From NCBI RefSeq assembly GCF_964194155.1, contig NC_135893.1, forward strand, positions 14,756,001 to 14,820,000: a stretch of DNA of 64,000 nucleotides, written 5' to 3'. The notes beneath the pieces are model-generated. The model was not told the DNA's origin and ran no database searches. It saw only the letters and a list, made by a program, of their open reading frames with translations. This DNA is from Cetorhinus maximus (Eukaryota). Numbering within the stretch: position 1 is the first letter of the stretch; each line of letters opens with the position of its first letter. The translations under genes and the position numbers were made by a program. This document shows, in pieces, positions 7,061 to 44,681 of the stretch.

Positions 7061-7334
7061 AATATATTGATTTTGTTTGTCTAGACTATTTTGATTGGCC
7101 AGTTTAAGGGTGTATCTGTTGTTGGGTTTATTTAGTGGATGATGCCTGCTGCACCACCTGCGCAATGATCGTTGGTTAATTAGATATTTTACAATTTTAT
7201 TGTTTAAAAAAAAAACTGAGTAGACTTGAGTATAACAATTTTTTGATCTATCACGATGCACTTGCAGTAAGGTGCGAGGTCCTCTGTTTATGGTTATTGG
7301 GTGGGAGGAGATGGTGCACATTCACCACCCTTGT

Positions 7335-7476
7335 GAGGTGTCAGCTGTGGCTCAGTTCATAGCACCCTCGCCTTTGAATCAGAGGGTTGTGGGTTCATGT
7401 CCCACTCCCGGAAACCAAGAACTGTGATTGTACTCGAAAGAGTTGCAATCTGTGACTGTTGATAACTCAAAAGAGT
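7335..7476 (+). mobile_element. Young 142-bp tRNA-derived SINE, copy 1
   Basis: A-box-like tggctcagttcatagc and B-box-like ggttcatgtccc. 14-bp TSD ttcaccacccttgt at 7321-7334 and 7477-7490. Matches the inverted copy at 37049-37190 at 140/142 positions. Confidence 0.9.
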
Positions 7477-7639
7477 TTCACCACCCTTGTCATGAACCAC
7501 TAGGTAGCCAATTTTTTTTTGAACAAAAATTTTTGAAGGAAGATTCCTGGGCACATTTTGGGGAGCTTTAGGGGATGGAAAATTGGGAGATTCAATTGAA
7601 ATACCAGAGAATTGATTTTCTGGGGAGCCAAATTGTGTT

Positions 7640-12844: not shown

Positions 12845-14230
12845 AGACTGAACTGGTGTTTTATAAAGGTTCACCATAACTTCTTTACTTTTGTATTCTG
12901 TGCCCCTATTTATAAAGCCTGTATGCCTTATTAACCACTTTCTCAACCTAGTGCACATACACCCCCAGGTCCTCAGTTCCTGCACCCCCTTTAGATTTGA
13001 ATCCTTTATATTGTCTCCCCTCTTACTAAAATGTCTCACTTCACATTTCTCTGCACTTCATTTCATCTGCCATGTTTTTGCCCATTCCACCAGCCTGCCT
13101 ATGGCCTTTTGAAAGTCCATCACTATCCTCCTCGCAGTTCACAATGCTTCCAACTTTTAAAATTGTGCCCTCTGTACCCAAGTCTAGATCAATAATGCAG
13201 ATCAAGAAAAGCAGTGGTCCTCGTACTGACCCCTGTGGAACCCCATTGTATACTTTCCATCAGTCTGGAAAAAAACATTTACCATTTCTCTTTCTTTCCT
13301 GACACTGGCCAACTTCCAAGTTGCCATTGTCCCTTTTATTCCATGGGATAACTTTGCTGACAATTTTGGCACTTCATCCAACAGTTTTTGAAAATCCATG
13401 TTGTGGTCGTGTGTTACAGTTCACTTGGGCCATCCGAGTTGCTGTGGCAGCATGCATGATGTAGTCTGGAACGATGGTAGAGGCTCCAATGTTCTTTCCA
13501 CCACATGGCTGACCAGGAATGTCTCCTGCTCTTACCACCTGCCATTGGCATGTGAGTGCGACTTGAACCCAGAGCTTCTGCCTCAGAGGCGGGGGTGCTA
13601 CCTACTGCACCACAAGACATTCTGAAAGTCCATGTAAACCGCATCAACTGCATCATCAACCTCCACTATAAACTCATTGAAAACACAAATAAAATTGATT
13701 AAACATTATTTGCCTTTAACAAATCCATATTAGTTTTCCTTAATTCACACTTGCTCAAATGACTGTTAATTTTGTTTCGGGTTATAGTTTCCAAAAGCTT
13801 TCCCACCACAGACGTTAAACTGACTGGTCTGTCGTTGCTGGGCTTATCCTTACACTGTTGTTCAAAAAAGGATGTAACATTTAAATTCTCACGTCCTCAT
13901 GCACCATCCCTGTAGCTAAGGAGAATTGGAAAATTATGGCTAGTGCCTGTACAATTTCCACCTTTACTTCCCTCAGTACTCTTGTATGCATCTCACCGGA
14001 CCTGGTGACTTTTGCTACAGCCAGCCTTTAACACTCCCTCGATCAATTTTAGTCCATGCGATGTCTCAACCAGCTCCTCTTTCACTGAATTTGACAACAT
14101 CTTCTTCCTTGGTGAAGACAAAGACAAAATACTCAATTAATACCTCAACCAAGCCCTTTGCCTCCATGTATAAATCCCCTTGTAAGCCCTTAATTGGCCC
14201 CAACCCCTCCTCCTACTACTTTTTTACTAT
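12845..14230 (-). mobile_element. Old CR1 ORF2 remnant, interrupted by a SINE
   Basis: Antisense signature SSGPRTDPCGTP; minus strand INRGTEYKSKEVMVNLYKTPV. Confidence 0.8.
13401..13619 (-). mobile_element. tRNA-derived SINE (second family), copy 1
   Basis: Minus-strand head tgtcttgtggtgcagtaggtagcacc...ctctgggttcaagtcgc. Flanked by imperfect TSD ttttgaaaatccatg/ttctgaaagtccatg. Paralog at 19390-19655. Confidence 0.75.
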
Positions 14231-36480: not shown

Positions 36481-37048
36481 CTGGAACATGCTCTCAAAAT
36501 TACAGTTATAAAGTTTTGTGGGGCCAGGAGAAGCAGGAATGCTGACTCTTGGAAAAAAAAATGTGATCTGCTGTGGGTCACTAAATGAGCCCTCCCTTTA
36601 GGATGCCTTCTTCCCCTTTTAATTTCCATCTGGCTTGGTTTCCTCTATGGATCAGGTGGGGTTCCCATCTCCACTGCACCCCTCCCACCAAAATACTGAG
36701 CTGTCCATCAATACTCATTAATCACTCACCAGCTGACCAACCAAGTACAAATGAGGCAGAAGTTGAAAAAGGTTTGGATGTTACTGATATTGGCAGGTGA
36801 TGTGATAATTACAATCAGCACCCACCCATTCGGGCTGATGTTGAAATTTGTCCTGCTTATCATTTCCTCTTGCATAACATTTTAGAAGTTGAGCCAGCCA
36901 ACCAAATTGGCTCTAATGAAAGGCTGTTTACAGACAAAGACTTAAACAACATAGTGTCAGATCCAATTTGTGCATTGTTTCCTCCACAAAGACATCACAA
37001 TGTACTTCAGAAAGCAAATACACAGCCACTTTTAGCCCATAGCTTGAA

Positions 37049-37190
37049 ACTCTTTCGAGTTATCAACAGTCACAGATTGCAACTCTTTCGAGTACAATCA
37101 CAGTTCTTGGTTTCCGGGAGTGGGACATGAACCCACAACCCTCTGATTCAAAGGCGAGGGTGCTATGAACTGAGCCTCAGCTGACACCTC
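37049..37190 (-). mobile_element. Young 142-bp tRNA-derived SINE, copy 2
   Basis: 14-bp TSD gcccatagcttgaa at 37035-37048 and 37191-37204. Near-identical reverse complement of 7335-7476. Confidence 0.9.
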
Positions 37191-38480
37191 GCCCATAGCT
37201 TGAAGAAGGAGCTGTCCTGAGCATTCATCAACTGGATATGTACTTGAAGAGGAGTAATTTGTAGTTTTATGTGGCATGAATCTGGGTGTAGAACTGAATT
37301 GGACTGTTCTTTCAAAGAGCCGTCACAGGAACAGTGGGTCATATAGTCTCCTCCTGTGCTATACGATTCTATAATTCTACTCACTGTGAAGACTAAGAAG
37401 GGAATGCTTGGAAAGTGGCAGCACTTTAATTGTTTTGAAGGTTCACTAAACTTTCTGAATCCCAGTATCTAACAGTGTTGTTAAATAGAATCTTTGATAT
37501 TTTTGTATACCTATTACATTTGTACGGTGAAAGTGGATGAAGGTGCTAAATATGCCACCTGCATTTTATCCTACCTTGCTATGCAAAGGGTAATTATTGT
37601 TGGGGGGTGGTGGTTGTTATTCTTTGGAGATATACAATTGTTAATATTCTTTCATGACTTTGATTTTATGCAAATTTGGATTGAAAGCAAAATACCTATC
37701 TAGTGATGAAGGAGTGGATCAGTTCTGAAATGGTGTGTTTTTCTTGTTTTTTTTTATATGTAAGCTGTTAATGCTGTCCTGTATGCTTAAACCCTAGCTT
37801 TGATCCAGGTTGAGTTAGCCTGCCTTTGACTTGACCATTAAAACATAAGTGGCCTGGGGGGGGGGAATGGGTTGGTGGTTAAAATTTGTAACATACTTGT
37901 ATGGCAGGATGCTGAATTTTGTAGTCCCTAGGTTGTGATATTGTTCCCAATATGCTGAATAATTCTGCCCATGCTCCCCAGTGGTGATTAAGTTTGGTTG
38001 ATTTCAGGATGATTCCATCAGAACTTTGGTTTTGAAAAATGAGGTTACGTTATTGTGATATGTTGCTCTTTGGCTTTGAAGTGCTTTGGCACGTTCTAAG
38101 GATGCAGAAGTTTGTTGCAGTTTGATATCATATAATCACTGTTGACCTTGTGAAATCCCAGATAGAATATTCCTCTTTGTCTCAAAGGGATTTTCACACA
38201 CCAATTTGAGACTAAATATGCCGCATGTAGGTAGGGTTGCCCTCTCTATCTCCAATTCCACATGGTAGCGTGGAATTTAAATTCAATTAATAGATCTGGA
38301 ATTTAAAAACTAATATGGTTCACTAATGTCCATTAGGACATAATGTCTTTACCCCGTACATGTTACTCCAGACACTCTCAATGTGACTTAACTGCCCTCT
38401 GAAATGGGGAAGGTCAGAAACTAGGAATTTTGCTGGAGTAACTCACTCCCTGACTTCCCAAAGCTTGTCCACCATCTACA

Positions 38481-44001: not shown

Positions 44002-44681
44002 CAAACTGAGTATTTCAATGGCATGTCTTCGGATCAGTCAGTTAGCAATATGCCAAATAATGCAGCAGTTTTTTTTAAATTTAAGTTGTTAAATTTTGTA
44101 TACTATTTAATTCAAATAAATCTTATTTGACTGCTGTTTATGGACAGAAAAAAGGCAAGCTATTCCTTAGGAGTAAAAGCATAGAGGAGTTTGAGTGAAA
44201 AATACAGGAATGCTTCCAATTACAGCTGATGGAGATTGTGACCAAGTTACACAAGGGTGATGGGGGTGGGTAGTGTGACTTTTATGGAACCCACAAGAGT
44301 GGGAAGCATGGCATTCTGGGTGGCTTAATTAGGTGAGATGCAAAATTTGGTTACTCAACAGCAGGTTGAAATGCAGAGATGAAGTCAGCGGTGTGTCGAG
44401 CATTACACTGGACTGTGGCAAGTTCGTACTTAGAGTAAAACATATTTTAAATGATGTCCTACTTTCAAGGTAAAGTCAGCAGTGTATGAGAATCTCTATG
44501 CTTTTCCCCCCAAGGAATAGCTTGCCATTTTTCTGCCCATTAGCAGCAGTCAAAGAAGATTTATTTGAATTAAATAACATACAAAATTTAACAGCTTAAA
44601 TTTTTTTAAAATTTGCTGCATTATTTGGCATATTGCTAACAGACTGATTCTAAGACATGCCATTGAAATACTCATAGTTTG
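44002..44681. repeat. About 100-bp inverted repeat with a spacer of about 480 bp
   Basis: 44002-44100 (caaactgagtatttcaatggcatgtctt...gttaaattttgta) pairs with 44580-44681 (tacaaaatttaac...aagacatgccattgaaatactcatagtttg). Confidence 0.9.

What the first reader, a model, noticed from the sequence alone, without database searches (positions are those of the whole stretch)
7335..7476. Apparently new young SINE: tRNA head plus a tail of two GAAA-tetraloop hairpins
Seen: two exactly 142-bp copies (here and at 37049-37190) differ at only 2 positions, and each has a perfect 14-bp TSD beginning TTCA in element orientation. After the tRNA-like head comes a duplicated tail, ctgtgattgtACTC-GAAA-GAGTtgcaat / ctgtgactgttgatAACTC-GAAA-GAGTTtca, giving two GNRA-capped hairpins. 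There is no poly(A) and no match to the 3' end of any LINE in this window. The head resembles shark DeuSINE (SacSINE1) heads as I recall them, but the Deu core is absent. Inference: a recently active SINE mobilised by an unidentified LINE that primes on TTCA microhomology and recognises a stem-loop tail.
Basis: partly seen in the sequence, partly recalled or inferred. Interest (0 to 1): 0.7.

Follow-up and report, generated by a model that had tools for sequence, protein, structure and literature searches.

The report
Shark SINE that inherits target choice
This is one of more than 14,000 copies of a young, very short jumping element that ends in the same small hairpin as a Tx1-type retrotransposon and is likely copied by it, and each of its lineages lands on a different three-letter DNA word, likely set by the letters that follow the hairpin in its own RNA rather than by the enzyme.

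Summary
Both copies and their 14-bp TSDs are real, but the flagged copy's second loop is AAAA, not GAAA. The family is large and young: 14,443 exact head matches, median 97.9% identity. The likely partner is a Tx1-clade LINE, 50% identical to Xenopus Tx1L ORF2 and with intact copies. It ends in the same 12-nt hairpin without poly(A), shares TSD length and an upstream motif (GTnCAMC), and stacks with the SINE at shared sites. The LINE lands on TAC, mostly inside a Harbinger transposon, and never on TTC in 100 listed ends. SINE lineages land on their own words: TTC, TAC, ATC, TTT, or TTG (28 of 31 in one deletion lineage). Copies ending at the first hairpin land mostly on TGC, the RNA's own next letters. 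So the enzyme likely picks the region while RNA-DNA pairing picks the word, making target choice heritable. Precedents exist (crocodilian SINEU/Tx1-Mar; RTE SINE tails). No description was found in the held papers; Repbase and Dfam were not searchable.

The parts
7314..7320 (+). Upstream target motif of copy A (GTGCACA; family consensus GTnCAMC), likely endonuclease recognition side
   Evidence: sequence; motif in 40 SINE and 22 LINE target sites
7321..7334 (+). 5' TSD of copy A, starts with the lineage word TTCA
7335..7408 (+). Head with A-box-like (7348-7358) and B-box-like (7392-7402) motifs; shared with an older shark SINE
   Evidence: (loose ends at 7408 run on into the older SINE); no Rfam or ARAGORN tRNA hit
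7409..7421 (+). Linker; a longer A-rich run in the oldest subfamily
7426..7450 (+). Hairpin 1 (GAAA loop); the terminal hairpin of the older one-hairpin subfamily, still usable as an insertion end
   Evidence: fold; subfamilies; hairpin-1-ended copies
7460..7476 (+). Hairpin 2 (AAAA loop in this copy); its last 12 nt equal the 3' end of the Tx1-clade LINE
7477..7490 (+). 3' TSD of copy A
37035..37048 (-). 3' TSD of copy B
37049..37190 (-). Copy B, full length, two GAAA loops
37191..37204 (-). 5' TSD of copy B

Best explanation
It is a young, poly(A)-less SINE family that shares a 12-nt terminal hairpin and a target signature with a Tx1-clade LINE and is likely copied by that LINE's enzyme, with the endonuclease likely choosing the upstream motif and the RNA letters just after the hairpin likely choosing the three-letter landing word by base pairing. 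SHOWN: family size, youth, TSDs, 5' truncation, the shared 3' end, the shared upstream motif GTnCAMC, co-stacking with the LINE, and lineage-specific landing words. INFERRED: (1) Pol III transcribes the head and reads through to a T-run in the flank. (2) Tx1 ORF2p binds the terminal stem (ACTC-loop-GAGT; loop sequence free). (3) The endonuclease nicks loosely just after GTnCAMC. (4) Reverse transcription starts only where the freed DNA end pairs with the 3-4 RNA bases after GAGT. Those bases come from the flank of the source copy, so daughters land on the same word and pass it on. (5) An insertion leaves the motif intact on its 5' side, so later copies stack there. (6) A source copy with a non-TAC flank frees its lineage from the LINE's Harbinger target. 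(7) The SINE arose when the LINE's 3' tip was joined to the truncated head of an older SINE, and later gained a second tip.
For: Shared end: 12 of 12 intact LINE loci end in the same 12 nt as the flagged copy. 8 of 30 LINE loci are directly followed by the SINE, 6 of them with the spacer repeated as the SINE's TSD (read by eye). Upstream motif: SINE TTC sites G-7 28, T-6 31, C-4 35, C-1 31 of 40; LINE sites 13, 17, 19, 15 of 22. Words by lineage: 7-nt-deletion lineage TTG 28 of 31, against 6 of 48 in other young copies (p 2e-12), with 10 non-tandem TSDs starting TTG; G141A lineage TTT 9 of 12, with a T-run at the 3' junction longer than in the target; older subfamilies mostly TAC. Within-molecule test: of 47 young-type copies ending at hairpin 1, 27 continue TGC and 2 TTC; of 23 with a TSD called, 10 start TGC on both sides and 0 start TTC on the 5' side. 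There the upstream motif shifts by one base. No LINE family with this 3' UTR ends on TTC/TTG/ATC/ATG (57 matches against 62 control). Where the two TSD copies differ in their first 4 nt, the 3' copy carries the lineage word in 10 of 13 cases (read by eye). Stacking order: left unit younger in 10, older in 1, of 46 TSD-spaced pairs (p 0.012).
Against: No biochemical or RNA evidence: no run on record as RNA holds the stretch. The shared tail is only ~12 nt. Position -2 of the motif is mostly C for TTC sites (24 of 40) but A for LINE sites (15 of 22); the Harbinger site may cause this, or a second enzyme. 7 of the 47 hairpin-1-ended young-type copies use TAC and 13 use other words; some young units sit on TAC at Harbinger sites and some older units on TTC. 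24 of the 47 had no TSD called, one called TSD looks spurious (L293), and one row is a tail variant rather than a true hairpin-1 end (L338). Folding support for hairpin 2 is modest. The B-box-like motif has T at the usually invariant A (consensus recalled). A Tx1 family with an unrelated 3' UTR was not excluded. No source locus was identified, so 'inherited from the flank' is not shown directly. No empty allele was seen for either window copy.
Confidence: 0.75

Rival explanations
1. Several Tx1 (or other) LINE subfamilies, each with its own endonuclease word, mobilised the SINE lineages at different times; the RNA flank plays no part.
For: Crocodilian SINEU families differ in target and this was ascribed to different Tx1-Mar families (PMC4494074, Results read). 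Motif position -2 differs between TTC and TAC sites. LINE 3' ends show several variants.
Against: No such LINE is found: 4 TTC/ATC-ended matches against 594 young LINE ends, and 57 against 62 control. At a recurrent TTC site, 26 of 27 inserts are the SINE and none is a LINE. It does not explain why copies ending at hairpin 1 switch to TGC, or why a 7-nt deletion predicts TTG.
Confidence: 0.12
2. The word is a fixed, internally encoded 3' end of each SINE lineage (a processed RNA ending just after the stem) rather than a flank picked up anew from each source locus. Pairing with the target still selects the site.
For: TTCA, TACA and ATC can each extend hairpin 2 by pairing with its 5' arm (for TTCA; the others by inspection). 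A few words dominate.
Against: Hairpin-1-ended copies show priming with at least 30 nt of RNA still 3' of the primer site. Captured 5' units carry varied flanks up to a T-run (10 of 40 non-TSD joints against 3 of 46, p 0.03).
Confidence: 0.1
3. The SINE is mobilised by another LINE (CR1/L2 type, or the poly(A)-tailed L1/Tx1 element seen in L063/L070), and the shared hairpin is coincidence.
For: The shared stretch is short; the older SINE that supplied the head is reported to use an L2 tail (PMC5499810, passages, if that SINE is SacSINE1).
Against: Identical 12-nt end, same TSD length, same upstream motif, same Harbinger site and direct co-stacking with the Tx1 element. The other L1/Tx1 element has a poly(A) tail and 35% RT identity.
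Confidence: 0.03

Closest known systems
SINEU-1/2/3 with Tx1-Mar, and Tx1-9_AMi, of crocodilians (PMC4494074; abstract, passages and parts 3-4 of 5 read; supplements not read)
   Same: SINE ascribed to Tx1-clade LINEs; preference for a DNA transposon as target (Tx1-9_AMi: Harbinger); tandem copies sandwiching a TSD; small-RNA pieces added at 5' ends.
   Different: SINEU heads are U1/U2 and no LINE sharing the SINEU-1 3' end was found. Here the head comes from an older tRNA-type SINE, the LINE shares the 3' tip, both are young with intact ORFs, and the landing word varies by SINE lineage.
Xenopus Tx1L (YTX2_XENLA; target data from PMC1950540, passages)
   Same: ORF2 50% identical over 99% (RT 63%); inserts in a DNA transposon; its reported 5'-AGTT-3' after the nick is the complement of the AACT in the shark LINE's main site.
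   Different: Tx1L is described as stringent for Tx1D, and no SINE passenger is mentioned in the passages read. The shark LINE uses a Harbinger site in 17 of 30 ends and many other sites.
RTE-related SINEs whose 3' microsatellite correlates with the TSD start (PMC6007223; abstract and one Discussion section read)
   Same: Split signature: protein-read upstream feature plus RNA-dependent choice of the first TSD base; near-identical elephant SINEs with different tails give different TSD starts.
   Different: There the cue is an element-encoded repeat and 1-2 bases. Here there is no repeat: the cue is 3-4 nt after a hairpin, in a Tx1 system, with a within-molecule control.
SacSINE1 / DeuSINEs of sharks (PMC5499810, passages; the name is assigned from recall, no reference sequence compared)
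   Same: tRNA-type head; the oldest subfamily here keeps ~12 nt of what follows the head in the older SINE.
   Different: No central domain and no L2-type tail; 142 bp against copies of up to ~460 bp.

Membership tests
SINE (tRNA-headed, LINE-mobilised) | Short, non-coding, interspersed at high copy number | tested here: met
   142 bp; 14,443 exact head matches
SINE (tRNA-headed, LINE-mobilised) | TPRT marks: variable TSDs, fixed 3' end, 5' truncation | tested here: met
   145 of 256 arrays with TSD, mode 14; 25 of 71 solo copies in the unselected sample are 5'-truncated
SINE (tRNA-headed, LINE-mobilised) | tRNA-derived head with Pol III A and B boxes | tested here: inconclusive
   Box-like motifs and no T4 run inside; 78-87% identity to an older SINE head; no ARAGORN or Rfam tRNA hit
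SINE (tRNA-headed, LINE-mobilised) | Pol III transcript | not testable with these tools
   No run on record as RNA; only indirect support from T-run-ended captured units
SINE (tRNA-headed, LINE-mobilised) | 3' end shared with a partner LINE | tested here: met
   Last 12 nt identical to the Tx1-clade LINE end; a longer shared tail was not found
DeuSINE / SacSINE1 | Central Deu domain and L2-type tail after the head | tested here: not met
   Only 68 nt follow the head; similarity to the older SINE stops at or ~12 nt after the head. The Deu reference itself could not be compared (supplement unavailable)
SINEU | U1- or U2-derived head | tested here: not met
   No Rfam U1/U2 hit on the element, while Rfam detects U2 in L096
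Tx1 clade (partner LINE) | ORF1 plus APE-RT-zinc-knuckle ORF2 grouping with Tx1L | tested here: met
   Pfam RVT_1 and Exo_endo_phos, weak zf-RVT and zf-CCHC; 50% identity over 99% to Tx1L; same clade, SH-aLRT 98, quick tree only
Tx1 clade (partner LINE) | Target preference | tested here: met
   17 of 30 ends on the Harbinger-site word; host element carries DDE_Tnp_4
Tx1 clade (partner LINE) | Endonuclease specificity shown biochemically | not testable with these tools
   Needs an in vitro nicking assay

The most novel reading that the evidence does not exclude
A SINE whose target specificity is a self-propagating trait: each source copy's downstream flank acts as a 3-4-nt guide for a Tx1 enzyme, daughters inherit that guide by landing on the same word, and lineages drift away from the LINE's safe-haven target with no change in the protein. 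It may also be the first tRNA-headed SINE / Tx1 pair with a shared 3' end, and a ~12-nt hairpin may be all the enzyme needs to accept a cargo RNA.
Probability: 0.55. Interest if true: 0.7.

Novelty: new variant of a known kind. Interest (0 to 1): 0.55.

Why it matters
How much of a LINE's target choice comes from the endonuclease and how much from RNA-DNA pairing at priming is usually hard to separate in genomes. Here one likely enzyme, several RNA lineages and two alternative priming points in one RNA give a natural experiment with thousands of young insertions, and intact LINE ORFs make it directly testable. It also shows a route by which a passenger escapes its driver's safe-haven site, records the stepwise birth of a SINE, and defines a very short candidate cis signal of interest for retrotransposon-based insertion tools. 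The family is held by runs of five organism labels, so it may serve as an insertion marker.

Tried and rejected
tRNA identity of the head: ARAGORN 0 genes, Rfam no tRNA hit. A LINE sharing the whole 65-nt tail: 667 matches with SINE context partly excluded; all 30 loci read were SINE variants. A TTC-landing LINE: 4 matches, 0 LINEs among 27 inserts at a recurrent TTC site, 57 against 62 control. GNRA requirement rejected (AAAA 53, GAAA 2 of 109 pattern-matched ends, a set that includes some non-LINE rows). A 5S-headed sister family: only 2 matches. Insertion polymorphism: contigs of another sample of the same organism label run from unique flank into copy A (5' side) and copy B (both sides), and no empty-site joint was among the rows shown; this is no proof of fixation. 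Expression: no RNA holder listed. Hammerhead/Penelope-type retrozyme considered because of the tandem arrays: rejected, since spacers are locus-specific TSDs and Rfam gave no ribozyme hit. The careful tree did not finish. The two primary Tx1L papers were not held. Literature searches without a description of this family: (listings seen). Repbase, Dfam and SINEBase could not be searched, and unread supplements of PMC4494074 and PMC5499810 may bear on novelty.

Full report
1. Observation. The two copies, their 2 differences and their 14-bp TSDs are as described. One difference lies in the second loop, so the flagged copy has GAAA and AAAA loops and only the 37-kb copy has two GAAA loops. Folded alone, the 68-nt tail gives both hairpins (z -1.89; 9 of 200 shuffles as good). 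Hairpin 2 borrows the TTCA of the TSD and is not in the MFE of the whole RNA. The head is not recognised as tRNA by ARAGORN or Rfam. It has box-like motifs, no internal T4 run, and 78-87% identity to the head of an older SINE found in 8 places among the loci and the window. The name SacSINE1 for that older SINE is recalled, not tested.

2. Family. The genome (3.99 Gb; shark-like by its repeats and by homologs) gave 46 full-length hits at 98-100% among 64 matches, with 40 of 569 candidates scored. There are 4,237 exact matches of the 3' 20-mer and 14,443 of a head 23-mer, controls 0. I read the first 100 head matches (a few rows were cut from view). They resolved into 81 insertions, all of this family: 46 with a TSD called, 10 multi-unit, and 25 of 71 solo copies 5'-truncated. 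The young two-hairpin type has median 97.9% identity to the 37-kb copy. Over all loci, 145 of 256 insertions had a TSD, 113 of them 13-16 bp. Subfamilies form a series: one hairpin after an A-rich linker, then two hairpins with a TAC-type spacer, then the window's type. Runs of five organism labels hold the element.

3. Partner. Older copies clustered at one site in a DNA transposon with a DDE_Tnp_4 (Harbinger-type) transposase. A search for other inserts at that site (1,076 matches) revealed a LINE that ends in the same ACTC-loop-GAGT tip with no poly(A). Twelve loci picked for long frames all have a 1,303-1,304-aa ORF2 (97.6-99.8% identical); 7 also have an open 724-736-aa ORF1. ORF2 is 50% identical over 99% to Xenopus Tx1L and groups with it in a quick RT tree (SH-aLRT 98). 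Only ~12 nt are shared with the SINE; a longer shared tail was sought and not found. In 8 of 30 LINE loci a SINE follows directly, in 6 with the spacer repeated as its TSD. LINE and SINE share TSD length and the upstream motif GTnCAMC. All 12 intact loci have an AAAA loop, so a GNRA loop is not required.

4. Landing word. The LINE lands on TAC: of 100 listed ends (594 in all) none continues TTC, and 17 of 30 are on the Harbinger word. Young SINEs were scored at the Harbinger site in 1 of 53 unselected cases (the pattern may undercount). Their 48 two-hairpin ends split into TTC 23, TTT 7, ATC 7, TTG 6, TAC 2 and other 3. The word follows the lineage. A 7-nt tail deletion gives TTG in 28 of 31 (34 deletion-type loci were fetched; 31 ends parsed), against 6 of 48. 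G141A gives TTT in 9 of 12, with a T-run at the 3' junction longer than in the target, as expected if a terminator U-run primed. Older types give TAC.

5. Within-molecule test. Young RNA reads UGC after hairpin 1. Of 100 listed rows (108 in all), 47 did not continue into the tail (counted by eye): TGC 27, TAC 7, TGA 6, TAA 3, TTC 2, TTA 2. A TSD was called in 23 of 47: 10 start TGC on both sides (8 with a non-SINE 5' flank) and none starts TTC on the 5' side. One called TSD looks spurious and one row is a tail variant. No LINE family with this 3' UTR lands on the SINE's other words. Against the reading: 20 of 47 use other words, some young units sit on TAC, motif position -2 differs between SINE and LINE sites, a Tx1 family with an unrelated UTR is not excluded, and no source locus or RNA was seen.

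6. Stacks. Of 86 adjacent pairs, 46 are spaced by the TSD. Among these the left unit is the younger type in 10 and the older in 1 (34 same, 1 unclassified; p 0.012), which fits re-insertion at the regenerated upstream site. Of the other 40 joints, 10 end in a T-run against 3 of 46 (p 0.03), which fits template jumps onto Pol III transcripts; the parser misread a few rows. U2, U6 and 5S copies ending in a similar tip sit at the Harbinger site; the 5S form is rare (2 matches). They suggest how the SINE was born (inference).

7. Known systems. The closest is crocodilian SINEU with Tx1-Mar (PMC4494074; abstract, passages, parts 3-4 of 5): DNA-transposon target, TSD-sandwiched tandems, but snRNA heads and no shared 3' end found for SINEU-1. 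RNA-dependent choice of the TSD start is proposed for RTE SINEs, and RNA-target pairing is cited there for several LINEs (PMC6007223; abstract and one section). Tx1L's reported AGTT after the nick (PMC1950540, passages) is the complement of the AACT in the shark LINE's main site. PMC3747384 (passages) lists shark SINEs with CR1/L2-type partners only. PMC5499810, PMC13343379 and PMC1919474 were seen as passages and do not mention this family there. Eight searches found no description; Repbase, Dfam and SINEBase were not available. Two earlier AI notes on this genome, seen only after my analysis, also propose a Tx1 driver; they are not independent support.

8. Verdict. A real, young, apparently undescribed SINE with a well-supported Tx1 partner (about 0.9) and a likely RNA-set, heritable landing word (about 0.8). 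New variant of a known kind; interest 0.55.

Noticed in passing
L095, L096, L388: 5S rRNA, U2 and U6 copies inserted at the Harbinger site, each ending in a 6-16-nt tip like the LINE's end; the 5S form occurs twice genome-wide.
   Followed up: partly
L063, L070, L080, L081, L083: A SINE lineage that lost the hairpin loop and carries a ~45-nt 3' extension; it inserts without the usual word, twice at the same site of another LINE. How it is primed is unexplained.
   Followed up: no
G000:C2:163812780-163866367; L184, L185, L189, L190, L193: Full-length LINEs stacked head to tail (8 ends at ~7-9-kb spacing); their 5' part holds a long GCT-rich tandem repeat.
   Followed up: no
L160-L163: A tRNA gene with its trailer up to a T-run joined in front of a young SINE, behind a LINE, in four near-identical loci.
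   Followed up: partly
L005:1648-1711: A young copy abuts a tRNA fragment whose T-loop TTC may have served as target; no TSD.
   Followed up: no
L125-L151: A recurrent TTC hot spot inside another repeat (judged CR1-like by eye) holds 26 young SINE inserts.
   Followed up: partly
window 7335-7342 versus target sites: The SINE's first bases are complementary to CACCT, the commonest context of TTC targets; chance or 5'-end pairing is untested.
   Followed up: no
L063, L070: A second, poly(A)-tailed L1/Tx1-type LINE family, 35% identical in RT.
   Followed up: partly
window 44007-44674: Long inverted repeats (76 and 110 nt, 88-90%) around a 307-nt core; possibly a non-autonomous DNA transposon.
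   Followed up: no
window 13554-13614 (-): An older head-like sequence, 76% identical to this head, with a different continuation.
   Followed up: no
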